From a phage, in the NCBI GenBank assembly GCA_021132495.1, contig GCA_021132495.1_4335.1: a DNA stretch of 44,086 bases. The stretch is one strand, 5' to 3'. Numbering within the stretch: the stretch's first letter is position 1; the number at the start of each line of letters is the position of its first letter. Both the position numbers and the translations under genes were made by a program. This document shows positions 10,937 through 35,365 of the stretch, piece by piece. The notes beneath the pieces are model-generated. The model worked only from the letters and a program-made list of their open reading frames with translations, searched no databases and had not been told where the DNA came from.

Positions 10937-11022
10937 AAATCTACTGGTTTTATGAAGAAGACTGTCGAATCTGTCCGCGCTGCGGTACTGAACATACGAA
11001 ACGTGAGGGGTGTGTATTATGA
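10933..11022 (+). CDS. small CxxC peptide (29 aa)
   Basis: Manual ORF MKIYWFYEEDCRICPRCG...; ATGA overlaps on both sides. Confidence 0.25.
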   Translation: MKIYWFYEEDCRICPRCGTEHTKREGCVL

Positions 11023-11516
11023 AAGCACCAAGTGACGATATAAAAGATTTTCTGTCATACGACCCGGATACCGGGATATTTAAATGGGTCAAGCACAGAT
11101 GCCAGACCGCGAAACCCGGAGATGTTGTTACATACAAGGACCGTAAAGGGTACATATTGTTAGGATGGAGTAGGGTGTATTACCGCGCACACAGGCTGGC
11201 GTGGTGGTGGGTGTACGGAGAGATGCCAACTAAGCAAATAGACCATATTAACGGCATACGGGACGATAACCGGATTTGTAACCTACGGCTTGCGGATGAA
11301 TTTCAACAGAACCATAACCGCAAGACCCCAGTTACGAACACCAGCGGCGTGAAAGGGGTTAACTGGAGTAAGCCTCATAATGCTTGGTGTGCTCGAGTTG
11401 CTTTTAAAGGTACACGCTATCAGATTGGGTATTTCCAGAACCTAAATGAAGCAGAGGAATCCCTGAGAGAATTTAGGGCAAAACTGCACGGAGAGTTTTG
11501 CAACCATGGCGACTAA
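11019..11516 (+). CDS. HNH endonuclease with AP2 DNA-binding domain
   Basis: HNH motif IDHINGIRDDNRICNLRLADEFQQNHNRK; AP2-like GVKGVNWSKPHNAWCARVAFKGTRYQIGYF; ATG at 11019 after RBS gagggg. Confidence 0.8.
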   Translation: MKAPSDDIKDFLSYDPDTGIFKWVKHRCQTAKPGDVVTYKDRKGYILLGWSRVYYRAHRLAWWWVYGEMPTKQIDHINGIRDDNRICNLRLADEFQQNHNRKTPVTNTSGVKGVNWSKPHNAWCARVAFKGTRYQIGYFQNLNEAEESLREFRAKLHGEFCNHGD

Positions 11517-12015: not shown

Positions 12016-13436
12016 GTAAGTTTCAAAGGCGCGAATATCAGAAGCTCATGACTTCGTTCATGCTACAGCATCCGCGCTGTAATATCTGGTGCGGCATGGG
12101 AGGGGGCAAAACCTCCTCAACTATGTGGGTGCTTAATCGCCTGTTTCGCAACGGGCAGCTTACAGAAGATGACCGCGTGTTAATCCTCGCCCCGTTACGT
12201 GTTGCGTCCGGTACGTGGCCCGCTGAACAAGAGAAATGGCAATTCCCTTGTCTGCGTGTCGTAGATGCAACTGGTTCGGAGAAGCGCCGCATCGCAGCGC
12301 TGGAGTCAGATGCTAACGTGGTGTGCACTAACTACGAAGTTATCGAGTGGCTAATTGACTACTACGGCAAAGACGACTGGCCTTTTACGGTTATCGTTGC
12401 CGATGAAAGCACGAAGCTTAAATCGTTCCGCAGCCGTTCGGGTGGTAGCAAGCGGGCAAAGGCGCTCAGCAAGGTTGCGTTCGGAAAGGTTAAGCGTTTC
12501 ATCAACCTGACAGGCACACCGTCACCAAACGGCCTCAAAGACTTGTGGGGTCAGAACTGGTTTATCGACGCTGGCGAGCGCCTCGGCTCTTCGTACACAG
12601 CATTCACCGACCGCTGGTTTAACTCGGTACAGAAAGGTAAATCGGCTATGGCCCGCGAGTATCATGCACGACCGGGTGCGGATAATGAGATTCATCAGAA
12701 GATGAAAGACATCAGCCTGACCATAGACCCTGCCGAGTGGTTTGGTTGTGAAGCGCCTGTTATCGTACCGGTGGAAATAGACCTGCCGAAGAAAGCGCGT
12801 CAGGCGTACATAGATATGGAGGAGAAGTTATTCGCAGAACTGGAGAGCGGGGAAGTTGAAGCGGCTAACGCTGCGGCGAAGACCTCAAAGTGCTTGCAGA
12901 TTGCATCTGGTGCCGTGTATGTGTCGGGGCCGGATGGCGAAGCGACCAAAGACTGGGAGAAAGTGCACGACACGAAACTGGATGCGCTCGAGTCGATTGT
13001 TGAGGAGTTGCAGGGTGCGCCGTTGCTGGTAGCCTATCAGTTTAAACACGAACTGGAGCGTATCCTTAAGCGATTCCCACAGGCACAGGCGTTCGCCAAA
13101 GGCGCTAGGGGGAACAAGCAGATGGAAGCGTGGAACCGTGGGGAAATCGAGATTTTATGCGTGCATCCTGCGTCAGCCGGGCATGGTTTGAATTTACAGG
13201 ACGGGGGTCATCATCTGGCGTTCATCTCGCAAGGCTGGAACCTTGAGCACTATTTGCAGGTTGTTGAGCGCATAGGCCCAGTCCGCCAGAAACAGGCGGG
13301 TCACGAGCGCCCGGTGTTCCTTTATCACATCGTTGCTAAAGACACTCTGGACGAGGTTGTCGCCGCGCGTACCGACGAGAAGAAATCGGTACAGGAAGAG
13401 TTGCTTAATTACATGAAGAGACGAGGTAAGAAATGA
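12012..13436 (+). CDS. SNF2-family helicase
   Basis: DExx box IVADEST; motif GTPSPNGLKDLW; C-terminal helicase motifs. Confidence 0.8.
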   Translation: MSKFQRREYQKLMTSFMLQHPRCNIWCGMGGGKTSSTMWVLNRLFRNGQLTEDDRVLILAPLRVASGTWPAEQEKWQFPCLRVVDATGSEKRRIAALESDANVVCTNYEVIEWLIDYYGKDDWPFTVIVADESTKLKSFRSRSGGSKRAKALSKVAFGKVKRFINLTGTPSPNGLKDLWGQNWFIDAGERLGSSYTAFTDRWFNSVQKGKSAMAREYHARPGADNEIHQKMKDISLTIDPAEWFGCEAPVIVPVEIDLPKKARQAYIDMEEKLFAELESGEVEAANAAAKTSKCLQIASGAVYVSGPDGEATKDWEKVHDTKLDALESIVEELQGAPLLVAYQFKHELERILKRFPQAQAFAKGARGNKQMEAWNRGEIEILCVHPASAGHGLNLQDGGHHLAFISQGWNLEHYLQVVERIGPVRQKQAGHERPVFLYHIVAKDTLDEVVAARTDEKKSVQEELLNYMKRRGKK

Positions 13437-13948
13437 TGGATTTCGAAGAGTTTCTACTTAAAGCTCATCTGCTGGCGCGTGGGTTTGACGCTGACCGTCT
13501 CCAGGTAGTCTTAGCCCCTGGAGTAGCTACGTTTTACCTGTGGGGGTTTGACGGCAGGCTACGAGGATACCAGCATTACAAGCCGCATGCTGAAAAGAAC
13601 TGTAAAAACCCTAAAGACGCGCGGTACTTTACCCGAACAACAAGGCCGTGTTTATGGGGACTTGAGTATTTGCCAAGTAGCGGGGTGGTATTTGTTACCG
13701 AAAGCATATTTAAAGCTGTTGCTTTGATGAATTGCGGGTTTAATGCAGTTAGCGCATTGGGGTCGAACATACCAGCTGACTTACGGCAGCAAATGTCACT
13801 TTTGCCGTATGACTGGGTGTGCGCTGGCGACAATGATAAAGCTGGATTAAAGTTCAGCAAAACATTCACCAGAGGATTTGTATCTAACGACCTTGATGAA
13901 CTTTGTGAAGAAGAAATAACGTATCTTGCGAGGAAATTTACCAGATGA
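13433..13948 (+). CDS. Toprim-domain protein (primase-like)
   Basis: VFVTESIFKA (Glu) and CAGDNDKAG (DxD) resemble Toprim catalytic motifs. Confidence 0.45.
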   Translation: MMDFEEFLLKAHLLARGFDADRLQVVLAPGVATFYLWGFDGRLRGYQHYKPHAEKNCKNPKDARYFTRTTRPCLWGLEYLPSSGVVFVTESIFKAVALMNCGFNAVSALGSNIPADLRQQMSLLPYDWVCAGDNDKAGLKFSKTFTRGFVSNDLDELCEEEITYLARKFTR

Positions 13949-14082
13949 ACATCATAGCCCCAATTCCGGCATTGCAAAAACGTATCAAGGAACTCGAAGA
14001 AGAGGTTCTGCGGCTACGTCAGCAAAGAGACGCCGCTAATGCGCAACTGGCGTTTGTACTGGAGAAGTTATCAGAAGAGTAG
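13945..14082 (+). CDS. small coiled-coil protein (45 aa)
   Basis: Manual ORF with ATGA overlap; heptad-like KRIKELEEEVLRLRQQ. Confidence 0.3.
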   Translation: MNIIAPIPALQKRIKELEEEVLRLRQQRDAANAQLAFVLEKLSEE

Positions 14083-14086
14083 AGGA

Positions 14087-14108
14087 AAGGCCCCGTTTGG
14101 GGGCCTTG
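14087..14108. terminator. bidirectional terminator (aaggcccc-gttt-gggggcctt)
   Basis: Perfect GC hairpin between convergent plus early genes and the minus tailspike gene. Confidence 0.55.
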
Positions 14109-14113
14109 TTTAT

Positions 14114-16450
14114 TTAACTGTTTGCCAGGGTAGCCACTAATGTCTCAAGCGCTATAATCCTTTTCTCTAACTGAGCTGCTTTACGTCGCTGTAACGCAGC
14201 CTCTAATATCAATACCTCATCATAACGAATACCATACCGCTCCTCTGCCGCCGTAGCTTTTGTTAATACTTCCCCAGATTCCTCATCAATAATTTCCGGA
14301 GACGCTTCCCACTTATCGTAGCACAGGAAACCGTACTTAGTCGCGTCTAACCCGTGCCGGGTAAACGCCTCAATTGCTCGTTGGGCTACTACTCCAAAGT
14401 GCCACCTAGCTGCATCCTCCCCCTTCTCTGCAACCCTATCCAGGTACTTATATTGAACTAAATTAACTTCAGCCCAAGCGTCTAACATAGCGTCAGTTAA
14501 TTCCAGGGGTAGTGTCTTGGCTCTCTCGTCAGACGTAACCGTAAACGCTGTTTGAGTGAATCCGCCGGACAAAGCGCGACTTGCCGACCCGATAGCGACG
14601 GTGTTTGCACTGGATGGTGTAATAGCCGTCGGGGCTATTTGAATATACGCCGATGCGTCAGAGGCTAAGCGTAAATTACCATCAACCAGAGAAATAGTTC
14701 GATAAGTACCATCAGATGAGAGTAATTTTATATGAGAGGTCGTACCTCCACCAATAGCCAAAGATGTAGCCCCATCGGAAATTAGTCTGAATTTATCAGC
14801 TGTCACAAAAGGCAATGCAGAAGTATCTATATACTTAGTGAACCACTCAAACCTACCGGACATGGACCCTATGTATTGTCCTATAGCGGGGGCGTGTACC
14901 ACGTTACTGGTGGTAGTACCATCAATGCTAGAGACACCGGTTATAGTAGATAGTGAACTAAGAAGACTGTTCTTGGGTCCAGGGTGCTTTACTTCCACAA
15001 AGTTACGGGTAGTCCCTGTCGCTAGTGTAACAACCCCGGAAGCACTATACATAGGGAAAACCGATGCGTAGTTATTACTAGCTCCGTCTAAAAACCTAAT
15101 AGAAGTCGCGGTTTGCGTTTGCCCTAAACTATTAGTTCCGCTGCACCCAACCATTAGAATATTATCAGCGGCATTATAGTTGCCCTGTAATGTAACGCCG
15201 TGTGCTTGCGTGGCCTCGGAGGAGGAGTAATCAGCTACAACATTTGTCACCAGATTACCTGAACCCTTGCCGGCGACCACAGCGGCATACTTAGCGTTAT
15301 TAGCAACAACATTACTGATAATATTACTGCTAGGGGCATTGGTCGTCGCGGTGCCATTATAAACAACGTGCTGACAGCTTTGCCCAATGACGCCACTAAC
15401 AACATTACATTTAGCATCTGTTTTCAACTCAACCGCCCCGAATTGGGGGTAGTTTCGGGCGATAACATCGTTGATTATAGTATTACTTGCGGACTCAAAC
15501 AGCACGCACCCCGCTGTTTTATTTGTAGCATACCCGGAGTAGTCGCCCCGTATGCCGCTTACAATGTATCCAGACGGACCCCCATCGCTAGGGTATGCTA
15601 TTAAACTAAATCCAGTTCCCTTTGCATTTTTAAAATCAATACCTTTAATAGTAACGTCCTGCCCACCGGCGAAGGAAACCTGCTGACCCTGTGTGAAGTC
15701 CGTTGCCTTATTTCCTACAATACTCAGGGTGCTAAGTAGCCCTCCTGCAGGTTTATCAAAGATTAAGTGGTTTCCAGAATCGTTTGATTGTTTTAAAACC
15801 CCACCCCCTGTTCCGAATAGAGAGCATGTCGGGTGGGAGAGTAGCGACGTACTATACTCCCCTTGCGGTACAAGCACCCCGTTACTAGCTGTAAGCGCTC
15901 GGTTAAGGGCGTTTGTGTAATCAGGGTCAGTACCTAAATAGAAGTCCAGAACGGAAACTACTTCTCTATTTTTATCGTGTTGCGTCCTGCCGACAGCGTC
16001 GGTAAATGGTTGTCGGACGCCGACCATGGCATCACCTAATGTCGCATTGTCTGTGCTGGATAAATCATTGCGCAAATCCGGGTCAGTCTGCGGCTTCCAG
16101 TTAGCGTTACCAACCGGGTTAAACGATGCGGGGACAACAACCGGCAGAGTCCCGGTATACGAGTACCACGTCTTGCTTACAGGGTCATACACCACTTTGT
16201 CGCGGTCATTAACTGTTAACGTACCGCCGGTGGAAAAGTCCCACGATACGAGAGAAAAACCGGCATCACGCAACACAGCAGGAAGCGTCTTCTGGGTCTG
16301 CCCGGTAACAGGGTTGGTCGCGTAATCAATATCGGCGCCACCAGCAACCCCGCCGGATTTACCGGTGATAACCTCGGCTTCAAAAATTTGGTGTTTCTTG
16401 GCGGTTTGTAAATCCGCCAGGCTTAAAACGTCACCGCATCCGCTTGACAT
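14114..16450 (-). CDS. tailspike/tail fibre with predicted beta-helix depolymerase domain and C-terminal S74-type intramolecular chaperone
   Basis: 778 aa; conserved fibre N-terminus; Gly/Ser/Asn/Val-rich central repeats; C-terminal motif SDERAKT...WHFGVVAQ typical of self-cleaving chaperone domains. Confidence 0.8.
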   Translation of the reverse strand: MSSGCGDVLSLADLQTAKKHQIFEAEVITGKSGGVAGGADIDYATNPVTGQTQKTLPAVLRDAGFSLVSWDFSTGGTLTVNDRDKVVYDPVSKTWYSYTGTLPVVVPASFNPVGNANWKPQTDPDLRNDLSSTDNATLGDAMVGVRQPFTDAVGRTQHDKNREVVSVLDFYLGTDPDYTNALNRALTASNGVLVPQGEYSTSLLSHPTCSLFGTGGGVLKQSNDSGNHLIFDKPAGGLLSTLSIVGNKATDFTQGQQVSFAGGQDVTIKGIDFKNAKGTGFSLIAYPSDGGPSGYIVSGIRGDYSGYATNKTAGCVLFESASNTIINDVIARNYPQFGAVELKTDAKCNVVSGVIGQSCQHVVYNGTATTNAPSSNIISNVVANNAKYAAVVAGKGSGNLVTNVVADYSSSEATQAHGVTLQGNYNAADNILMVGCSGTNSLGQTQTATSIRFLDGASNNYASVFPMYSASGVVTLATGTTRNFVEVKHPGPKNSLLSSLSTITGVSSIDGTTTSNVVHAPAIGQYIGSMSGRFEWFTKYIDTSALPFVTADKFRLISDGATSLAIGGGTTSHIKLLSSDGTYRTISLVDGNLRLASDASAYIQIAPTAITPSSANTVAIGSASRALSGGFTQTAFTVTSDERAKTLPLELTDAMLDAWAEVNLVQYKYLDRVAEKGEDAARWHFGVVAQRAIEAFTRHGLDATKYGFLCYDKWEASPEIIDEESGEVLTKATAAEERYGIRYDEVLILEAALQRRKAAQLEKRIIALETLVATLANS

Positions 16451-16462
16451 ATAGAGTCCTCT

Positions 16463-19030
16463 TTAATTAAAACCATTGCTGAATCCGTCGGAGAAACCGC
16501 TGCCGTATGGCGCGACGCCGTCGTATTTATAGAATCCGTCATCATAGTTGTAGCCCGTAATCTTGACCGTGCGGTCGTCGCCGGGGTCGATTGAAGAAAC
16601 AACTATCTTCTGAGCATTATGCCTTGCTTCGTTGCCGAATGAAAACTCAGTTTTTAGCGCACTATTCCCCGTGTAGATTGCCTCCTCCGGCGCGGAGAGC
16701 ATAATCACTTCGCGGTCGTGGCTTCCTTTGATAACAGAAATACTCTGCACAGAGCCGTCGCGCTTCTTAAGAATGATGGAATGGTCATCACCAGGAGTAA
16801 ACGTAACAGGCTGAGACAGCGTCAGCGTAAGGCCATTGACGGCAACAACATAACCATCCTGCGGCGCGATACGCGAGCCTTTAACCACACTGATTACGCC
16901 GCCGGGAGTAGCGAGAGCGCCTTCTTCGGTAGCTTCGAACTCTACGACAACTTTACTTAACGTGTTGCGCTGGTAGCGACGCCACGCCAGCCAGTACGCT
17001 TGCTGATAGTTACGTACACCCTTCGATTCGTACTCCTCGGTGCTCGCGCCGAGTTCTTCCGGGATATAAATCGTCTCCTGTACGTTTGTATCCGGGTCAA
17101 TGTACGAGAACGACAGGCTATCGTAGGTTGTCGAATCGTTGAACGTGCGCGTCCATTTCTCCGTACCGGTCGTTTTGCTGCGGTGGGTGAAAACCATCTC
17201 AGGCCCCGCAACAGGACGGTCGAATCGCAGCATAATATCAGCCCCTTTACGGTATGCCGTACAAAACACGGCTTCCGCGATGGTCTGAACGATGTCTTGC
17301 ATGGTTGTGTCGTAGTCGTCGAATGTGTAGCAGAACTGCCCGGCTAATTCACTGTCAAAATACGACTCAATTTCTTCCTGCACGGCAAGTAACTTGTCCA
17401 TATTTGCCGTTGTCAGTTCCAGATTGCCCACCACAGGGTCACGCGCCAGCCTGATTAGCGACTGCACGGCCTGAGTGTTCGGTGTCATTACCGTATCGAA
17501 CACGCCGTTACCTAAGTATTTGTAGCACATCTCGGTTGCAATCATGCGCAGTTCCGGTTCGGACACCTCGGCTGCACGTGGGGTTTGTTTACGGGCGCAG
17601 TGTACGGTAGTACGGTTGCCGTAGTGGGGGGTTGTGTCCAGCGACTGCCCATACAGATTAGTGAAAGTAACCTCGTCGCTAACAGTACCTTCAAAATCTT
17701 TATCGGTGTCCGAAACACGACGCATACGGGCGCGGAATCTGGAAGCAGTTGGTAAACTTCCGTAAAGAGTAATCCCTGTGTAATCCGTGTTCCGGCCTGT
17801 TACGGTTCCTCGTACGGTAAATATGTCACCTACAGGCTGTTTCAATTCATCTACCATCTGGTATTGCAGTTCGACTGTCACTGAAGCGCGGTTATAGTCG
17901 CCGTTGTATTTGTACATGCCGTTGCTGGCGGCCACATTGGCTACAACACGGTCGACGGTTCCGCGGGTGATGTACGCCCATCCAGAGAGGGAAGCCGCGT
18001 AAGTATCCGCCGGGCCTATAAGATGGTTGCCCTCTTCACCTATAAACCATACAGATGTTCCTAGCTGGTTCCATATTGATTGATTTGTACTGACGTCCAC
18101 AATAAGGGTCGTTTCACTAACAGAAAGAACCGTGTACCTCCCGTCCAGGTTAACCTCATTACCCAAAGACCCTGGGGTTGTATCTGCATATACGTTATCG
18201 AAGTATGCCAGGTCCCCGACCGCCAAAAACTCATCGAAACCAGCGTCATCGCCTACTACAACGCCGGTTGTTCCCTGCCGCTGGACAGTGTAGTCCTGCA
18301 CGTCTATAGCGATATCATTAGGGGCGGGAAGAACAGCGCCATCGACATCGGCGTTTTTAAATGTAACGTACAATTTCTGGTCTATAGGGTCGCCGATATG
18401 CAATTGTGGTGTGCTGGTGTTATTCGGCGAAGTGTAAGGAGAATACACCGTCACCGACGAGCCAGTTATCTCGCTGATTCGGGTATCTGCCTCAGTTACA
18501 CCGTCTTCCTCAATATGCAGATACCCTCGACCGGCGTCATAGTACGCATATTCAATAAGCGCCCCCGTGGCGTTAAACACCTTATACGTCTGCATCAGGT
18601 CATTGGGTATAGTCTGCACTGTCCCGCAGATGTCATAAGAACGTTCATAAGGACGTGGCTTGTTCGAGCGGTCAGTAAGACTGTTGTTAGGCGACGTAGC
18701 CTGATTGTTGGTAGCGGAATAATTAGCGTTAGCTGCTGTGTTTAGCCCGAACAATTTGGCAATTGGCTTAAGGATGAAACTGAATACACTACCGATAGCG
18801 TCGCCGATACCACCGCCTGCACCCTCGATAATGTGGTACACGGCGTCCTCGTCTTTGAGCGCATTGAAGTCGTCTGTTACATCTGTATCATCGCCAATCT
18901 CACCGAGATAGACGCGCACAGGCACGCCGTAGGGAATACGGTTAACGACAAACTCCATCGGCATCCCGACGTGTTTTGTACGGTCGAAAGCGCCTTCAGC
19001 GTTTCGCGTGTAGTGCAGGATTATCGCCAA
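16463..19030 (-). CDS. tail tip / host-specificity protein (lambda J-like position)
   Basis: 855 aa, between minor tail genes and the tailspike; assigned by size and position. Confidence 0.5.
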   Translation of the reverse strand: MAIILHYTRNAEGAFDRTKHVGMPMEFVVNRIPYGVPVRVYLGEIGDDTDVTDDFNALKDEDAVYHIIEGAGGGIGDAIGSVFSFILKPIAKLFGLNTAANANYSATNNQATSPNNSLTDRSNKPRPYERSYDICGTVQTIPNDLMQTYKVFNATGALIEYAYYDAGRGYLHIEEDGVTEADTRISEITGSSVTVYSPYTSPNNTSTPQLHIGDPIDQKLYVTFKNADVDGAVLPAPNDIAIDVQDYTVQRQGTTGVVVGDDAGFDEFLAVGDLAYFDNVYADTTPGSLGNEVNLDGRYTVLSVSETTLIVDVSTNQSIWNQLGTSVWFIGEEGNHLIGPADTYAASLSGWAYITRGTVDRVVANVAASNGMYKYNGDYNRASVTVELQYQMVDELKQPVGDIFTVRGTVTGRNTDYTGITLYGSLPTASRFRARMRRVSDTDKDFEGTVSDEVTFTNLYGQSLDTTPHYGNRTTVHCARKQTPRAAEVSEPELRMIATEMCYKYLGNGVFDTVMTPNTQAVQSLIRLARDPVVGNLELTTANMDKLLAVQEEIESYFDSELAGQFCYTFDDYDTTMQDIVQTIAEAVFCTAYRKGADIMLRFDRPVAGPEMVFTHRSKTTGTEKWTRTFNDSTTYDSLSFSYIDPDTNVQETIYIPEELGASTEEYESKGVRNYQQAYWLAWRRYQRNTLSKVVVEFEATEEGALATPGGVISVVKGSRIAPQDGYVVAVNGLTLTLSQPVTFTPGDDHSIILKKRDGSVQSISVIKGSHDREVIMLSAPEEAIYTGNSALKTEFSFGNEARHNAQKIVVSSIDPGDDRTVKITGYNYDDGFYKYDGVAPYGSGFSDGFSNGFN

Positions 19031-19386
19031 AATTCAATCTCCGTGTACGTGTCTCTGAGGTCCACCAGCCTGTCAAGCCGTACCTGACGGGATGCAAGCT
19101 CGCAATGACTCACCATCCCGTCGAAGTAAACTCCAGCGTGCCACACGATACGACCCCCGCGGCGATAACCCATAAGCACCGCGCAGAAGTTTTCAGGCTT
19201 ATCAATTTTTGTAAGCCCCTTCGTGTCACGGTGGCCTTCGTCAAACGCTTCGTTAATTGCCGTTGGGCTTGTAACGTCGAACGCAGGGGTTTCTAACCCG
19301 GCATCCGCGCGGACAATGCGCACGTGATGCCAGCAATTGCGCTTGCGAAAGTCGTAAGGTATGCCCGTGTAGTCATTAATATTCAT
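19021..19386 (-). CDS. minor tail assembly protein (lambda K-like position; possible Cys/His peptidase motif)
   Basis: 121 aa; gene order; CWHH and WHAGVY segments. Confidence 0.4.
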   Translation of the reverse strand: MNINDYTGIPYDFRKRNCWHHVRIVRADAGLETPAFDVTSPTAINEAFDEGHRDTKGLTKIDKPENFCAVLMGYRRGGRIVWHAGVYFDGMVSHCELASRQVRLDRLVDLRDTYTEIEFWR

Positions 19387-19913
19387 GTGGTCAACAGGCC
19401 GCGTAATAACGGTATCTCTTTAGGTGTCATAAGTATACCAGTGCTTCGTTGGTTCAGCATAGGTGTACCGACATCTGCAGAGAACTCGCCCTTCTCCTGG
19501 TTGATGGCCTGTAACTCGTACACGACCGGGCCGTCAGCCGGATAAGACAGGTCGGTGCTGACGTAACGGCGAAATACGAACTTCGGCAACTCCGCATTGC
19601 CCATTGGGATTTTATCCATCTCATCATCAAGTTGATTGAGAATATCCGGTAAAGTAAACGTCGTCGTCTGGTCCATATCGCTGTTGTTAGCTGCCCCCGA
19701 CGCCTCCATCGGGGTGGGTTCGAATGTGATAGTTTCGCCGGTTTCCAGTGTCGCCGTAAGTTCCTGTAGCCCACGAACAAGATAGTACGTCTTTGACAAC
19801 AACGGGTGGCTGATTTGCAATGTGATGTAATCCATCTCGCCGTCGGGATTTGAGGCCAGCTTACGGCGATAGGCGGCTTCTACAGATTCCTGGCTCATTG
19901 CATCGGTTCCCAA
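19383..19913 (-). CDS. minor tail protein (lambda L-like position)
   Basis: ORF track (TTG start; a downstream ATG near 19897 is possible); gene order. Confidence 0.4.
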   Translation of the reverse strand: MGTDAMSQESVEAAYRRKLASNPDGEMDYITLQISHPLLSKTYYLVRGLQELTATLETGETITFEPTPMEASGAANNSDMDQTTTFTLPDILNQLDDEMDKIPMGNAELPKFVFRRYVSTDLSYPADGPVVYELQAINQEKGEFSADVGTPMLNQRSTGILMTPKEIPLLRGLLTT

Positions 19914-23508: not shown

Positions 23509-23615
23509 TCTTTAATCCTTTGGTTAAGAGGTTACGGGTTAAGGTTAATGCGCCAGACGGGAACCACCCGCTTTTCGTGTGCGACACTAGGCGCAAAATT
23601 ATTCTATCACATTAC

Positions 23616-23644
23616 TTGCACACCCCAATATAATAGTGTACTAT
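23616..23644 (+). promoter_or_regulatory. sigma70-like promoter TTGCAC-N17-TACTAT with palindrome AATAG-tgta-CTATT
   Basis: Near-identical to motifs at 660-688 (minus) and 33233-33261; about 40 nt upstream of the cassette. Confidence 0.5.
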
Positions 23645-23685
23645 TCACTTACACCAACGATGTTATCCCAAACAGGAGCTACACC

Positions 23686-23877
23686 ATGACGGGTATTACT
23701 ATGTTCTTCTTAATCATTATCGTTTTAGTTTATTTTATTCCATTTCTCGTGGCGCATATGCGCGACCATAAAGCGAAATTAGCGATATTCATGGCTAATC
23801 TGTTTCTTGGATGGGTTCTGCTGCCGTGGGTATTTATTTTAATCTGGGCTTGCAACTCGAATGTCAAAGAGAAGTGA
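23686..23877 (+). CDS. superinfection-immunity-like small membrane protein
   Basis: Two TM segments; motif ANLFLGWVLLPWVFILIWA recalls the Imm_superinfect signature; RBS caggag before ATG 23686. Confidence 0.65.
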   Translation: MTGITMFFLIIIVLVYFIPFLVAHMRDHKAKLAIFMANLFLGWVLLPWVFILIWACNSNVKEK

Positions 23878-23914
23878 GCTAGTATAGGACAAATCCTAAG
23901 CACGAGGAATAAAC

Positions 23915-25045
23915 ATGGCCCGGAAGAAAATAACCGACGAACAGTTGCAGGAAGAATTGAACGCCGGTATGAAGAATGTAGATATCGCCCGTAAATACGG
24001 CATCTCAGACCGCGTAATTCGTATCCGTAAAGCGAAGCTGGCTAAGAAAGGCGTGGGCCACGGGCGCGACGTTAGCCACCTTGTGCCAGACGGCTACAAG
24101 ATTAAAGGAACGTCGTCACTTGTGGACGAGTTCGGCAACACTAAGTTGCAATGGATTAAGACTGATACCGACGCCGAACGTCAGGTTGAATTGATGAAAG
24201 CCGTAATAGAGGGCATGAAGTCAGAGATTACGCCCGTTGCGCCTGTTAAAGCGGCGCGCGCCAAACGTGACGACAAGCTACTCAATCTTTACACTGTATC
24301 TGATTTCCATCTCGGTATGCTGGCATGGGCCGATGAGAGCGGCGACGACTGGGACATGAAGATTGCAGAAGACCTGTTCTCTCGGTGGTTCGACGCGGCG
24401 TTTCAGAAAGCACCGGATGCAGGAACAGGAGTTATTAACCTGCTTGGGGACTTCGCACACTTCGATAGTCTTGATGCCGTTACCCCCGAGTCGCGCCATG
24501 TATTAAATGCGGATACTCGCTATCAGAAACTGGTACGTTACATGATTCGTATGGTCCGCCGTGTTGTTGATATGGCGCTGGTTAAGCATCACACAGTAAA
24601 ACTTTTAATCGTTCAAGGTAACCACGACCCTGTTGGCTCCGTATGGCTTGCCGAAATGTTCACGGTTTTATACTCAAACGACAGCCGAGTGATTGTTGAT
24701 ACGTCGCCGGATGTTTACAAGATGGTGCAACACGGCAAAACGACGCTGTTCTTCCATCACGGGCATAAAGCACGATTCGACGCTATCGAACCGGTTATGA
24801 TTGCCAAGTTCCGTAAAGCGTTCGGCGAGAGTGTTTACAGCTACGCCCACGTAGGCCATCTGCACCACCAGAAGATTGTAGAAAGCCGTAACATGATTGT
24901 TGAGCAACACCGCACCTTAGCGGCTAAAGACGCCTACGCCTCTCGCGGCGGATGGATGTCGGGCCGCAGTGCAAATGTAATTACTTATAGCGCCGAATAT
25001 GGCGAGGTCGCACGTTTAACTATTTCACCGGAGATGCTGGGATGA
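23915..25045 (+). CDS. calcineurin-like metallophosphoesterase with N-terminal HTH domain
   Basis: Motifs DFHLG, GDFAHFD, GNHD, HHGH, GHLHH in canonical order; N-terminal VDIARKYGISDRVIRIRKAKL. Confidence 0.7.
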   Translation: MARKKITDEQLQEELNAGMKNVDIARKYGISDRVIRIRKAKLAKKGVGHGRDVSHLVPDGYKIKGTSSLVDEFGNTKLQWIKTDTDAERQVELMKAVIEGMKSEITPVAPVKAARAKRDDKLLNLYTVSDFHLGMLAWADESGDDWDMKIAEDLFSRWFDAAFQKAPDAGTGVINLLGDFAHFDSLDAVTPESRHVLNADTRYQKLVRYMIRMVRRVVDMALVKHHTVKLLIVQGNHDPVGSVWLAEMFTVLYSNDSRVIVDTSPDVYKMVQHGKTTLFFHHGHKARFDAIEPVMIAKFRKAFGESVYSYAHVGHLHHQKIVESRNMIVEQHRTLAAKDAYASRGGWMSGRSANVITYSAEYGEVARLTISPEMLG

Positions 25046-25530
25046 AAGATATTGTAATTTTCGATTTAGACGGGACATTGGCCGACGGTACCCATCGCTT
25101 ACACCTGTTACCAAAAGATAACTACGGAGAAACGTGGGCGTGGAAGCCATTTAACATGGCCTGCAAAGATGACACTCCGATATACGACAATATCCATTTG
25201 TGTAGCGTACTGTGGCATTCCGGACTTACTATAATTATCCTTACCGGGCGAAGTGATGACGCTGAGGAGGAGACTCGCGAATGGTTACGAGAGAATAACG
25301 TTAGGTTTGACACGCTAATCATGCGCAGCAAACACGACAACAGAAAAGACATCGTAATTAAAGAAGAGGTGTTGCGTGCTTTCGGACTGGAAAGAATCTT
25401 GTGTGCGTTCGACGACTCTCCAGCGGTAATAAAGCATTTCCGTGACCTCGGCATAACCGCACACGCAGTTACCGAATACGACTGTAACGGGAACTCTACA
25501 CACTTAAAACCACACGGGAGCGATAAATAA
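25042..25530 (+). CDS. HAD-superfamily phosphatase resembling the T4 Pnk 3'-phosphatase domain
   Basis: Motif I FDLDGTL, motif II ILTGRS, RKDIVIKEEV and AFDDSP; recalled similarity to the T4 polynucleotide kinase phosphatase half. Confidence 0.7.
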   Translation: MKDIVIFDLDGTLADGTHRLHLLPKDNYGETWAWKPFNMACKDDTPIYDNIHLCSVLWHSGLTIIILTGRSDDAEEETREWLRENNVRFDTLIMRSKHDNRKDIVIKEEVLRAFGLERILCAFDDSPAVIKHFRDLGITAHAVTEYDCNGNSTHLKPHGSDK

Positions 25531-26084
25531 TGGCTAAGGTAATTATTCTTAATGGCCCTGCGGGTTGCGGGAAAGACACGCTTGCTATGGCGCTGGTAGA
25601 AATGGGCTTTGCGAAAGGAACTACCAGTTTCAAGAATCCAATGTTCAATATTGCTTTGGCAGCGTTAGGCCAGGATGCTTACCACGAATTTCTCGACGGC
25701 TACGACGACCGGGCGCGGAAAGAAAAACCCGAGGGTTTTCTTAATGGGTTGTCCCGCCGCCGGTTAATGATTGCCATTTCTGAGCAATTCATTAAACCGG
25801 TATTCGGCGATGATTATTTCGGTAAGTATCTTGCTGAAAACTTGCCTGACGGCGACGAAGTTTTTGTAGTGTCCGATGGTGGATTCGCCAGTGAAGTTGC
25901 CCCTATCGTCGCCGCGGGGCATGACGTGCGAATCGTCCGCCTCCATCGTGACGGCTATACGTTCATCGGCGATAGCCGTGGCTATCTGTACGATGTTAGT
26001 GGTGTAAAAGATTACGACACCTACATCATACCGGGTGACGTTAAATCGAACGTTATAGACATTGCTTTAAAATTAGGTTTGTAA
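25530..26084 (+). CDS. P-loop nucleotide/polynucleotide kinase (T4 dNMP-kinase-like GKDT Walker A)
   Basis: N-terminal ILNGPAGCGKDT; 184 aa; coupled to the HAD gene (TAATG overlap). Confidence 0.6.
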   Translation: MAKVIILNGPAGCGKDTLAMALVEMGFAKGTTSFKNPMFNIALAALGQDAYHEFLDGYDDRARKEKPEGFLNGLSRRRLMIAISEQFIKPVFGDDYFGKYLAENLPDGDEVFVVSDGGFASEVAPIVAAGHDVRIVRLHRDGYTFIGDSRGYLYDVSGVKDYDTYIIPGDVKSNVIDIALKLGL

Positions 26085-33827: not shown

Positions 33828-34289
33828 TCATTCCGGCTTAGTAACCTTCGCCGCTTTACTGACGGCCTCTACCCCATCGGCATCAGTAACTTTAACGAAG
33901 TATTCGCCGACCGCATTAACCGTCAGAGACAGAGCCTCCTCAGGCGCATTCACCACTTCCTTACCGTCTTTGTACCAGGTCAGAGAATACGGCGCTTTGC
34001 CTACCTTAACCTCGACAGTGATGGTTGCGCTGCCGCCCGCCAGTTCAGCGTCCTGCGGTTGCGCAGAGAAATACACGTCGCCAGCGTCCGCCAGATACGG
34101 AATTTCATAAAGCATACCGGCGGCGGGCAACGCAATACCGGTTTTATCTGCAAACGGCATATCATCTACCGGTGTACCGAGTACACTTTCGTCCTCAATA
34201 AATACCACGTTCTCGCCAGAGCCAGACACGCGGGCGTACTGGACTACGCGACGAGACGGTACGTCAGTTACTTTGAAAAAGCCCATCAT
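33828..34289 (-). CDS. virion protein with C-terminal Ig-like domain
   Basis: TITVEVKVGKAPYSLTWYKDGKEV...GEYFVKVTDADG Ig-like strands. Confidence 0.45.
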   Translation of the reverse strand: MMGFFKVTDVPSRRVVQYARVSGSGENVVFIEDESVLGTPVDDMPFADKTGIALPAAGMLYEIPYLADAGDVYFSAQPQDAELAGGSATITVEVKVGKAPYSLTWYKDGKEVVNAPEEALSLTVNAVGEYFVKVTDADGVEAVSKAAKVTKPE

Positions 34290-35365
34290 TATTCCCCTTT
34301 CAGATAATCAGCAACACGTTTATCGAGTTCCGCCATCTGCTTAAGCGTGAGCGGATTCCCGAAACCATCTACAGATATTACGCGAAACTCTTCCGGCGAT
34401 ATACCGCTGTTACGGAAAATCTTACCTCGCACCGGGCCGAGCGCCTGGTCCTGAAACCACGCCGGTTGTTGTTTAAGGAACTCGTAGTAAGTGGTGTCTG
34501 CGCTTACCTGAGTGCCACCTTCCGCGCCTTTAGCCGCGCGTTTTGCGCCTTTATCGAGGAAGTCGAACTCTGAACTGATTACCGGGGCCGTGGTGCTTCG
34601 ACAATTCGGATGGGCTGGCGGCATCGGACCTTTACCGATTTCCCACGTCATTCCGTCTCTGGCCCTGCAAATCGTGCTGGTACGGCTGTCCAAAGTTGAC
34701 ACCCACTCATATTTCTCGATGATGTCGTCGTTCTGGCGGTACGTCTCGTTACGGGCCTCGTTGGATACGTGGGACAGCGCGGTGCGGATTACCGTAGTCG
34801 CGTTACGTTCTGAGATGTCGGCTAGTCCACCAGCGCCAACAACATTCTTAACAATCTGCCGTGTGGTTTGACCTTGCACAAAGCCCATCTTAACTCCAGT
34901 TACAAGACGTGCTACTTCCGTTTCACCCCATCCAGACATCAGCTTGGTGAAATCAACGGGCTTGTCGCTCAATGATAATGGTTGAAACTCGGCAGCGGCC
35001 CATACCTGCTCAGCGGTAGGCGTAACAAATTCCGCGTCTACGTTGGCGGTCAGTGTCTTTACGTTCCACTCAGCCTCATACGCCGCCAGTTCCTTAAGGT
35101 CTTCTGTCAGCTTTGTCTGCCAGTCGCCCGTAAGCCCCACCAGTGCTTCTTCAAGGTCGCGTAACAATTTATTCAGTCGGGCAGTGCTTCGCCCGTCGTC
35201 ACCGAATAACAGCACCTGCCGTTTGATTTCATCCCTTATCTCCTGAATGAACGGCGTGAGGTCTTTCACTTCACCGGATGCGGTGCGTTGCAGCCATATC
35301 TGGTGGCTGATTAGAGATGTAAGTAAGCTCATAGATAAACCCTGTGGCGCTAAAGTTAATAGCAT
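34289..35365 (-). CDS. head morphogenesis protein (Mu F / SPP1 gp7-like)
   Basis: 358 aa after the portal; conserved-looking segment PAHPNCRST. Confidence 0.65.
   Translation of the reverse strand: MLLTLAPQGLSMSLLTSLISHQIWLQRTASGEVKDLTPFIQEIRDEIKRQVLLFGDDGRSTARLNKLLRDLEEALVGLTGDWQTKLTEDLKELAAYEAEWNVKTLTANVDAEFVTPTAEQVWAAAEFQPLSLSDKPVDFTKLMSGWGETEVARLVTGVKMGFVQGQTTRQIVKNVVGAGGLADISERNATTVIRTALSHVSNEARNETYRQNDDIIEKYEWVSTLDSRTSTICRARDGMTWEIGKGPMPPAHPNCRSTTAPVISSEFDFLDKGAKRAAKGAEGGTQVSADTTYYEFLKQQPAWFQDQALGPVRGKIFRNSGISPEEFRVISVDGFGNPLTLKQMAELDKRVADYLKGE

What the first reader, a model, noticed from the sequence alone, without database searches (positions are those of the whole stretch)
14114..16450. 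Tailspike with predicted depolymerase domain and self-cleaving C-terminal chaperone
The 778-aa protein has a conserved fibre N-terminus, a long Gly/Ser/Asn/Val-rich middle consistent with a right-handed beta-helix, and a C-terminal module (SDERAKT ... WHFGVVAQ) resembling the intramolecular chaperone of endosialidases and T5-type fibres. This gene probably determines host range through a capsule or O-antigen receptor.
Basis: partly seen in the sequence, partly recalled or inferred. Interest (0 to 1): 0.4.

Follow-up and report, generated by a model that had tools for sequence, protein, structure and literature searches.

The report
Kagunavirus tailspike carrying K5-lyase module
This gene is an ordinary modular phage tailspike: a siphophage attachment domain joined to a capsule-cutting enzyme of the known K5 (heparosan) lyase family and a self-removing folding domain, and near-identical copies are already in public phage genomes.

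Summary
Window 14114-16450 (- strand) is one 778-aa ORF with a good ribosome-binding site, and both quoted motifs are present. The interpretation also holds and can be made more specific.

- **Genome context:** the window is a Kagunavirus (Guernseyvirinae) siphophage genome.
- **Residues 1-130:** the genus-conserved virion anchor.
- **Residues about 131-778:** a swapped cassette.
- **Residues 177-640:** homologous to the crystallised K5 capsule lyase KflA (PDB 2x3h, E 8.5e-175, 56-59% identity). The AlphaFold2 model superposes on it (TM 0.75), and the recalled KflA active-site residues are conserved.
- **Residues 641-778:** a Peptidase_S74 intramolecular chaperone. S640 and K645 align with the endosialidase Ser911/Lys916 dyad, and the mature KflA crystal chain ends at the residue matching S640.

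The enzyme is therefore most likely a beta-eliminating lyase, not a hydrolase. Its most likely receptor is the E. coli K5 (heparosan) capsule, not an O-antigen. That specificity is inferred.

Eight deposited Kagunaviruses carry 96-98% identical spikes labelled only "tailspike". One of them, vKMB36, makes haloed plaques. I rate this a new member of a known kind, of low interest.

The parts
14114..16450 (-). Complete tailspike CDS, 778 aa (81.9 kDa precursor); stop codon at 14114-14116
   Evidence: ORF list; molecular weight; 96-98% identical to annotated tailspikes of 8 Kagunaviruses
16457..16463 (-). Shine-Dalgarno AAGAGGA, 6 nt upstream of the ATG; overlaps the TAA stop of the upstream J-like tail gene
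   Evidence: Sequence read directly
16061..16450 (-). N-terminal virion-anchor domain, aa 1-130, conserved across the genus
   Evidence: 88-96% aa identity to most sampled Kagunavirus-type spikes with unrelated centres. 98% nt identity to 22664BS2 down to window 16062. Weak Pfam Tail_spike_N match at aa 77-112, E 8.8e-5, 2 bits below the cutoff.
14112..16061 (.). Exchanged receptor-binding cassette (aa about 131-778 through the stop codon) relative to the otherwise 97-98% identical phage 22664BS2
   Evidence: blastn: matches at 13000-14111 and 16062-19898, nothing in between. The same cassette is present at 92.6% nt identity in vKMB36.
15923..16060 (-). Neck/linker, aa 131-176, partly helical
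   Evidence: Sequence match to the neck of the Sf6 tailspike (2vbe/4urr/7sg7, E 5e-9 to 7e-9, query 132-187); helices 139-142, 157-163 and 167-170 in the model
14951..15922 (-). Catalytic parallel beta-helix, aa 177-500, of the K5 (heparosan) lyase family
   Evidence: 2x3h alignment; 58% identity to K1-5 gp46 'K5 lyase'; pLDDT mostly 85-98; Foldseek 2x3h TM 0.75; 124 of 138 family-invariant residues retained
15359..15442 (-). Putative active-site segment NYPQF337GAVE341LK343...QH361VVY364, equivalent to KflA F202/E206/K208/Y229
   Evidence: Numbering offset of +135 from the BLASTP alignment to K1-5 gp46; residues verified. Their catalytic role is recalled from Thompson et al. 2010, which could not be read here.
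14531..14950 (-). C-terminal stalk, aa 501-640, expected to intertwine in the trimer; ends at the cleavage-site Ser640 (14531-14533)
   Evidence: Aligns with the KflA crystal chain to its last residue...FTVTS. pLDDT below 50 over 530-636 in the monomer model. [quoted passage not shown]
14117..14530 (-). C-terminal intramolecular chaperone domain (Peptidase_S74), aa 641-778, predicted to be released as a 15.6 kDa fragment; Lys645 at 14516-14518
   Evidence: Pfam PF13884, E 1.1e-13; 3gud E 6e-25 and 3gw6 E 1e-22; fold match to 3gud, TM 0.84; S640/K645 align with A911(S911A)/K916 of 3gw6
14087..14107 (.). GC-rich hairpin (AAGGCCCC-loop-GGGGCCTT) between the convergent tailspike and replication-gene units; likely a bidirectional terminator, lying in the flank conserved across spike types
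   Evidence: Terminator scan; sequence; the conserved flank ends at 14111
16463..19030 (-). Context: upstream J-like tail tip protein gene (855-aa ORF); the tailspike sits directly downstream, the standard RBP locus of small siphoviruses
   Evidence: ORF; annotated 'tail protein' in vKMB36; locus described in PMC11990801

Best explanation
The gene encodes the single receptor-binding tailspike of a Kagunavirus (Guernseyvirinae) siphophage and is built from three modules.

(1) Residues 1-130 dock the homotrimer to the tail tip, next to the J-like protein.

(2) Residues about 177-640 form a right-handed parallel beta-helix followed by an intertwined stalk. They belong to the K5 lyase family (KflA of phage K5A, gp46 of K1-5, the 820-aa prophage enzyme). 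This module binds the capsule and cuts it by beta-elimination, using a site equivalent to KflA F202/E206/K208/Y229 (here F337/E341/K343/Y364). [quoted passage not shown] Cutting lets the virion tunnel through the capsule to the outer membrane.

(3) Residues 641-778 are a Peptidase_S74 intramolecular chaperone. It nucleates trimerisation of the stalk and then removes itself by Ser640/Lys645-catalysed cleavage after Ser640. The products would be a 66 kDa mature subunit and a 15.6 kDa fragment.

[quoted passage not shown] It sets host range.

Shown here: the ORF, the homology, the fold, the motif conservation and the mosaic junctions. Inferred: trimerisation, autoproteolysis, lyase chemistry and K5 specificity.
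For: ORF and RBS.

PDB sequence matches: 2x3h K5 lyase, E 8.5e-175 over 176-640, with the mature crystal chain ending at the residue aligned to S640; 9vvr tail spike, E 2.5e-229.

58% identity over 592 aa to K1-5 gp46, annotated K5 lyase. K1-5-type phages carrying this enzyme plate on K5 strains (PMC8541614).

The AlphaFold2 model is confident over the beta-helix. Foldseek top hit is 2x3h, E 1e-38, TM 0.75.

F337/E341/K343/Y364 are conserved. 90% of residues invariant across 15 family members are retained in the helix.

The family splits into three roughly equidistant clades (58-62% identity). Two contain enzymes named as K5/heparosan lyases in the literature: the KflA type, and the prophage ElmA type.

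S74: Pfam E 1e-13; dyad alignment to endoNF 3gw6 and phi29 3gud; fold TM 0.84.

Mosaic junctions at window 16061/16062 and 14111/14112. The general principle, and conserved motifs flanking the receptor-binding domain, are described in PMC10408124.

vKMB36 has a 97.8% identical spike and gives plaques with turbid halos and a very narrow host range (PMC11162368).
Against: No experiment exists on this exact protein.

Identity to characterised K5 lyases is only 56-59% in protein and 64-65% in DNA, so substrate specificity could have drifted.

The K types of the isolation hosts of the eight near-identical phages were not found. One host is listed as Escherichia fergusonii.

vKMB36 infected only 2 of 77 UPEC strains, whereas two Vectreviruses with K1-5-like K5 lyase spikes infected 17-22%. 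That is narrower than K5 specificity alone would predict.

The catalytic roles of the four residues rest on my recollection of Thompson et al. 2010, which is not held in the library. Only their numbering was checked against the sequence.

I did not confirm that the 820-aa prophage protein (P0004) is the published ElmA.

The stalk (530-636) is modelled with low confidence because only a monomer could be predicted.
Confidence: 0.75

Rival explanations
1. The architecture and chemistry are the same (K5-lyase-family beta-helix lyase plus S74 chaperone), but the Kagunavirus clade has diverged to cut a different acidic polysaccharide. This could be another GlcA-containing group 2/3 capsule, a modified heparosan, or an O-antigen like those targeted by most characterised Kagunaviruses.
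For: Only 56-62% identity to the other two clades. Fourteen family-invariant helix residues are changed, including Y348C, E477A and D319E. Very narrow host ranges: 2/137 for fEg-Eco19 and 2/77 for vKMB36. One relative was isolated on E. fergusonii. BASEL Kagunaviruses depend on O-antigen (PMC11990801).
Against: The KflA-type and 820-aa prophage clades are just as far from each other (57-61%), yet both are described as heparosan lyases. The putative catalytic residues and 90% of the invariant helix positions are retained. Narrow plating range is also explained by host defence systems, to which Kagunaviruses are notably sensitive.
Confidence: 0.17
2. The spike binds heparosan-like glycans but is catalytically weak or inactive, and acts mainly as an adhesin. 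This could include binding to unsulfated domains of mammalian heparan sulfate, as proposed for phage ES17.
For: The ES17 tail fibre protein, modelled in part on K5 lyase, binds heparan sulfate proteoglycans (bioRxiv 10.1101/2020.07.20.212829). No activity data exist for this protein.
Against: ES17-TFP is only a remote structural relative of K5 lyase (E 4e-12), whereas this protein is a close homologue with the putative catalytic residues intact. vKMB36 plaques have halos, which indicates a diffusible depolymerase.
Confidence: 0.05
3. The C-terminal domain is retained in the mature spike: it serves as a chaperone or adhesion module without self-cleavage.
For: Autoproteolysis was not tested. 9vvr, the closest solved structure, aligns through residue 765 of the query (chain residues 169-838), so its deposited sequence includes the chaperone region. 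Whether that region is resolved in the structure is unknown.
Against: The Ser-x4-Lys dyad is intact and aligns with the endoNF catalytic pair. The crystallised mature KflA ends exactly at the equivalent Ser. K1-5 K5 lyase is listed as 67 kDa with a 52 kDa mature form (PMC5380687).
Confidence: 0.03

Closest known systems
KflA, K5 lyase of coliphage K5A (PDB 2x3h), and the near-identical gp46 of phage K1-5 (Vectrevirus, Autographiviridae)
   Same: The catalytic beta-helix, stalk and S74 chaperone are homologous end to end: 58% identity over 592 aa, with the same cleavage-site context FTVTS|D and the same putative active-site residues.
   Different: The virion-attachment end differs. KflA/gp46 (632 aa) has only a short N-terminal peptide that docks on an adapter protein of a podovirus. 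This protein has a 130-aa Kagunavirus anchor plus a neck and sits on a siphovirus tail tip. DNA identity is only about 64%, so it is a separate clade and not a recent transfer.
Kayfunavirus 843-aa tail spike (PDB 9vvr; e.g. vB_EcoP-101120B2 CDS 002, called K5 lyase in PMC8614997)
   Same: Best solved-structure sequence match: E 2.5e-229, covering query 86-765. The match includes the end of the anchor (the Tail_spike_N-like segment), the lyase and the chaperone.
   Different: It has a T7-type tail-fibre N-terminus (PF03906). Its lyase module belongs to the KflA clade (95% identical to the Vectrevirus type, 59% to this protein).
820-aa E. coli prophage tail protein (P0003/P0004), probably ElmA, the chromosomal N-acetyl-heparosan lyase of E. 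coli K5
   Same: 62% identity over the lyase and stalk, the closest clade in that region, with an S74 chaperone. It is encoded next to a lysis cassette in 68 complete E. coli genomes.
   Different: It has an unrelated 200-aa N-terminus and comes from a temperate prophage. The chaperone is only 46% identical. Its identity with the published ElmA sequence was not verified here.
Tailspikes of other Kagunaviruses (K1G/K1H endosialidases, O16-, O78- and O145-specific spikes, 22664BS2 spike)
   Same: Same gene position downstream of the J-like protein, and the same N-terminal anchor (88-96% identity for most of those sampled).
   Different: Their central receptor-binding domains are unrelated (13-21% identity). 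Several lack an S74 domain (Pfam lists).
C-terminal intramolecular chaperone domains of endosialidase K1F (3gw6), phi29 gp12 (3gud) and T5 pb1 (4uw8)
   Same: Pfam S74 match, the Ser/Lys dyad and the fold (TM 0.84 to 3gud, 45% identity).
   Different: These are attached to different passenger domains: a sialidase beta-propeller, the phi29 appendage, and the T5 fibre tip.

Membership tests
K5 (heparosan) lyase tailspike family (KflA / K1-5 gp46 / ElmA) | Significant full-length sequence homology of the catalytic region to KflA | tested here: met
   2x3h E 8.5e-175 over query 176-640; 58% identity over 592 aa to K1-5 gp46
K5 (heparosan) lyase tailspike family (KflA / K1-5 gp46 / ElmA) | Single-stranded right-handed parallel beta-helix fold followed by an intertwined trimeric C-terminal domain | tested here: met
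   AF2 pLDDT mostly 85-98 over 190-490. Foldseek 2x3h_A E 1e-38, TM(target) 0.75. The stalk (530-636) could not be modelled in a monomer, so that part rests on sequence alignment only.
K5 (heparosan) lyase tailspike family (KflA / K1-5 gp46 / ElmA) | Conservation of the proposed catalytic residues (KflA F202, E206, K208, Y229) | tested here: met
   F337, E341, K343 and Y364 are identical in the alignment. The assignment of these residues as catalytic is from memory of Thompson et al. 2010; the paper is not held.
K5 (heparosan) lyase tailspike family (KflA / K1-5 gp46 / ElmA) | Beta-eliminative cleavage of K5 heparosan, and K5-capsule-dependent infection | not testable with these tools
   The only indirect evidence is haloed plaques of vKMB36, whose spike is 97.8% identical. 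The K types of hosts were not found.
Peptidase S74 / C-terminal intramolecular chaperone domain (CIMCD) | Match to Pfam PF13884 above the gathering threshold | tested here: met
   51.7 bits against a cutoff of 22, E 1.1e-13, aa 640-701
Peptidase S74 / C-terminal intramolecular chaperone domain (CIMCD) | Catalytic Ser-Lys dyad with Ser-x4-Lys spacing at the domain boundary | tested here: met
   S640-DERA-K645 aligns with A911(S911A)-NGER-K916 of 3gw6 and with SDERHK of 3gud. The endoNF dyad numbering is from established knowledge (Schulz et al. 2010; MEROPS S74).
Peptidase S74 / C-terminal intramolecular chaperone domain (CIMCD) | CIMCD fold | tested here: met
   Foldseek 3gud TM(target) 0.83-0.84, rmsd 2.3-2.4 A, 44-45% identity; 3gw6 E 7e-8
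Peptidase S74 / C-terminal intramolecular chaperone domain (CIMCD) | Autoproteolytic release after trimer folding | not testable with these tools
   Supported only by analogy: the mature KflA crystal chain ends at the aligned Ser.
Kagunavirus / Guernseyvirinae tailspike | Genus-conserved N-terminal anchor and a locus directly downstream of the J-like tail tip gene | tested here: met
   88-96% identity over aa 1-130 to most sampled Kagunavirus-type spikes; synteny with 22664BS2 and vKMB36; locus described in PMC11990801
Endosialidase (K1-specific Kagunavirus spikes such as K1G) | Sialidase beta-propeller catalytic domain | tested here: not met
   The only endosialidase similarity is in the chaperone (3gw6, query 609-769). 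The central domain matches a lyase beta-helix instead.

The most novel reading that the evidence does not exclude
The Kagunavirus clade is a third, anciently diverged lineage of the K5-lyase family, at about 60% protein and 64% DNA identity to both known lineages. Its substrate range may differ from KflA and ElmA: for example it might tolerate modified heparosan or unsulfated heparan sulfate domains, or recognise a different capsule. If so, it would be a new glycosaminoglycan-active enzyme and possibly a mucus-anchoring phage adhesin.
Probability: 0.12. Interest if true: 0.45.

Novelty: new member of a known kind. Interest (0 to 1): 0.2.

Why it matters
The practical value is in annotation and phage selection. 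Eight deposited Kagunaviruses carry this spike labelled only "tailspike". One paper stated that the vKMB36 depolymerase resembled no known depolymerase. Recognising it as a K5-lyase-family enzyme predicts that these siphophages target K5-encapsulated extraintestinal pathogenic E. coli and strains such as Nissle 1917. It also gives a third sequence lineage of heparosan lyase, which could be useful for heparosan or heparin oligosaccharide production. Finally, it is a clean example of receptor-binding-domain exchange at defined junctions. It does not reveal a new mechanism.

Tried and rejected
- **Primary KflA papers.** I tried to read Thompson et al. 2010 and Clarke et al. 2000 by DOI and PMC id. 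Neither is held. A full-text search for the residue names together with KflA found nothing relevant. The catalytic-residue assignment therefore rests on memory plus a numbering check.
- **9vvr.** A search for a publication on 9vvr gave only irrelevant hits.
- **Host K types.** I looked for the K type or receptor of hosts of the near-identical phages (fEg-Eco19, vKMB36, VIPECO phages, EF2-1). None is reported in the held texts, and no supplement is held for the vKMB36 paper.
- **Prophage donor.** Megablast of the cassette against 5,426 complete E. coli genomes gave no match, so no recent prophage donor was found.
- **Recent transfer.** I considered a recent transfer from K1-5-like or Kayfunavirus phages and rejected it: DNA identity is only 64-65%.
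- **Endosialidase centre.** I considered an endosialidase-type central domain, as in Kagunavirus K1G, and rejected it.
- **Antisense ORFs.** The 77-99-aa ORFs antisense to the gene were treated as chance ORFs and not pursued.
Full report
**Observation.** Window 14114-16450 on the minus strand is a single 778-aa ORF with an ATG start. An AAGAGGA Shine-Dalgarno sequence sits 6 nt upstream and overlaps the stop codon of the preceding 855-aa tail gene. A GC-rich hairpin at 14087-14107 follows the stop codon, between convergent transcription units. GC skew changes sign at the same place. The quoted motifs are present: SDERAKT at residues 640-646 and WHFGVVAQ at 683-690. The middle region is enriched in G/S/N/V (38% against 25% elsewhere).

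**Genome context.** Megablast of window 10000-22000 hits Kagunavirus (Guernseyvirinae) coliphages at 90-97.5% identity. The neighbouring genes are a tape measure, DUF1833 and a J-like tail protein upstream, with a SNF2 helicase and a Toprim-like gene convergent downstream. In this group the tailspike lies directly downstream of the J-like central fibre gene and is normally the only receptor-binding protein (PMC11990801).

**Three modules.** Pfam finds Peptidase_S74 at 640-701 (E 1.1e-13) and a sub-threshold Tail_spike_N match at 77-112. PHROGs places the protein in tail-spike families, with separate families matching the N-terminus, the centre and the C-terminus.

Searching PDB sequences gives these matches:

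| PDB entry | Molecule | E-value | Query residues |
|---|---|---|---|
| 9vvr | 843-aa tail spike | 2.5e-229 | 86-765 |
| 2x3h | K5 lyase KflA of coliphage K5A | 8.5e-175 | 176-640 |
| 3gud | phi29 gp12 chaperone | 5.8e-24 | 640-761 |
| 3gw6 | endosialidase K1F chaperone | 2.7e-21 | 609-769 |
| 4uw8 | T5 L-shaped fibre | 2e-7 | 679-748 |
| 2vbe / 4urr / 7sg7 | Sf6 tailspike neck | 5e-9 to 7e-9 | 132-187 |

The crystallised, mature KflA chain ends in ...FTVTS, which aligns exactly with query ...FTVTS640. The phi29 chaperone chain begins SDERHKT, aligned with query S640-DERAKT.

**Structure.** An AlphaFold2 model was built from a 47-sequence alignment. It has mean pLDDT 78.8, with blocks mostly 85-98 across residues 190-490 and a regular series of short strands. 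The chaperone region scores roughly 75-92. Residues 530-636 score below 50, which is expected for a segment that folds only as an intertwined trimer. [quoted passage not shown] Foldseek against the PDB returns 2x3h first (E 1e-38, TM 0.75 normalised to the target, 56% identity). Other beta-helix tailspikes follow (CBA120 TSP3 and TSP1, Sf6, Det7, HK620).

**Active sites.** BLASTP against K1-5 gp46, annotated "K5 lyase", gives 58% identity and 76% positives over 592 residues, with a constant numbering offset of 135. I recall from Thompson et al. 2010 (JBC 285:23963) that the proposed KflA catalytic site involves Phe202, Glu206, Lys208 and Tyr229. The paper is not held, so this is memory. The numbering does fit gp46 exactly (NYPQF202GAVE206LK208 ... 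QHVTY229). The query has the same residues at F337, E341, K343 and Y364.

Across 15 family members from the two other clades, 138 positions in 177-500 are invariant. The query keeps 124 of them (90%), and most changes are conservative.

In the chaperone, S640 and K645 align with position 911 (Ala in the S911A crystal construct) and K916 of endosialidase K1F, and with the SDERHK of phi29 gp12. That is the S74 Ser/Lys dyad (established knowledge: MEROPS S74; Schulz et al. 2010). The predicted products are 66.3 kDa (1-640) and 15.6 kDa (641-778). K1-5 K5 lyase is listed as 67 kDa with a 52 kDa mature form (PMC5380687).

**Mosaic structure.** Phage 22664BS2 is 97-98% identical in DNA on both sides of the gene. 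It shows no detectable similarity from window 14112 to 16061. The exchanged cassette therefore runs from about residue 131 to the stop codon. The anchor (1-130) and the downstream hairpin-containing flank are backbone. vKMB36 carries the same cassette at 92.6% nt identity.

| Comparison set | Anchor (aa 1-130) | Centre (aa 177-640) |
|---|---|---|
| Most sampled Kagunavirus-type spikes | 88-96% identical | 13-21% identical (helix region) |
| K5-lyase-family proteins | 11-30% identical | 54-64% identical |

This is the anchor/receptor-binding-domain exchange described for Kagunavirus and other lytic genera. [quoted passage not shown]

**Position within the K5-lyase family.** Over 177-640 there are three roughly equidistant clades at 58-62% identity:
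- a tight KflA-type clade, 92-95% identical internally, found on Vectrevirus (632 aa), Kayfunavirus (843 aa, 9vvr) and about 73-kb phages annotated "K5 lyase" (784 aa);
- an 820-aa prophage protein present in 68 complete E. coli genomes next to a lysis cassette. This is probably ElmA, the chromosomal heparosan lyase, though I did not verify the identity;
- the Kagunavirus clade, represented here.

DNA identity between the query and the other two clades is only 64-65%. The cassette has no megablast match in complete E. coli genomes. The divergence is therefore old. The KflA-type and 820-aa clades are as far from each other (57%) as either is from the query, and both are described as heparosan lyases. 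K5 specificity is therefore the most economical inference for the query, but it remains an inference.

**What is already known.** tblastn finds 96-98% identical full-length proteins in eight deposited Kagunaviruses: EF2-1, fEg-Eco19, vKMB36, PDP21P8, fFiEco02, VIPECOTPH05A, VIPECOMC04 and fPoEco01. All are annotated simply "tailspike" or "tail spike protein". The 5.8-billion-protein database holds 97-98% identical clusters.
- fEg-Eco19 infected 2 of 137 clinical E. coli strains, and its receptor is unknown (PMC9038960).
- vKMB36 infected 2 of 77 UPEC strains (phylogroup B2) and forms plaques with turbid halos. Its authors wrote that its depolymerase showed no similarity to "any other depolymerases" (PMC11162368).

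The halo is indirect experimental support for a diffusible depolymerase in a 97.8% identical protein. I found no paper in the held library linking a Kagunavirus spike to K5 lyase.

**Mechanism (most likely).** The precursor trimerises under control of the C-terminal chaperone, which then cleaves itself off after Ser640. The mature trimer is anchored to the tail tip through residues 1-130. The beta-helix binds and beta-eliminatively cleaves the K5 heparosan capsule, bringing the tail tip to the outer membrane.
- Shown: the gene, the modules, the fold, the motif conservation and the recombination junctions.
- Inferred: trimerisation, cleavage, lyase chemistry and substrate.
- My confidence is about 0.95 for "beta-helix depolymerase tailspike with an S74 chaperone" and about 0.7 for "K5/heparosan-specific".

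**Rivals.**
- Drifted substrate specificity (0.17). This is supported by the roughly 60% identity, a few non-conservative changes (Y348C, E477A), the narrow host ranges and an E. fergusonii host.
- A binding-only adhesin like ES17-TFP (0.05). The intact catalytic residues and the halos argue against it.
- An uncleaved chaperone (0.03).

**Verdict.** The feature is a new member of a known kind, with near-identical but under-annotated copies already public. Interest is low (0.2).

Noticed in passing
window 11010-11516 (+): A 168-aa ORF with an HNH_3 endonuclease domain (E 2.5e-12) lies between the DNA polymerase and helicase genes. vKMB36 annotates an HNH protein at the same place, while 22664BS2 has small hypothetical ORFs there. 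It looks like a mobile homing endonuclease insertion.
   Followed up: partly
window 13433-13948 (+): A Toprim-like 171-aa ORF (Pfam E 2e-4, exactly at the cutoff) overlaps the helicase stop codon. It is conserved in 22664BS2, but window 13437-13944 has no nucleotide match in vKMB36, where a 177-nt ORF sits instead. This is another mosaic indel, right next to the tailspike.
   Followed up: partly
window 23548-26084 (+): A block of four plus-strand genes is embedded in the minus-strand tail module. It comprises a superinfection-immunity-like protein (Imm_superinfect, E 3.6e-13), a weak metallophosphatase-like 376-aa protein, a PNKP-type HAD phosphatase (E 2e-20) and a 184-aa protein of unknown function. 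It may be a nucleic-acid end-repair and exclusion module.
   Followed up: no
window 16463-19030 (-): The 855-aa J-like tail tip protein has no Pfam match at E <= 1e-3. Window 17966-18360 within it has no nucleotide match to vKMB36, although the flanks are 85-93% identical. This is an internal variable patch that could relate to a secondary receptor. The listed TTG start may be slightly upstream of the true start: relatives annotate a 2556-nt gene (vKMB36) and a 2496-nt gene (22664BS2).
   Followed up: no
window 34289-35365 (-): The Mu-F-like minor head protein is 358 aa. The roughly 900-bp intein reported in the vKMB36 minor head protein gene (PMC11162368) therefore appears to be absent here.
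   Followed up: no
L004 3001-5463 (E. coli GCA_053185005.1 contig) and 68 complete E. coli genomes: An 820-aa prophage tail protein with a K5-lyase module lies immediately upstream of a holin / GH19 endolysin / spanin cassette. RefSeq annotates it only as 'tail fiber domain-containing protein'. It is probably ElmA and is under-annotated.
   Followed up: partly
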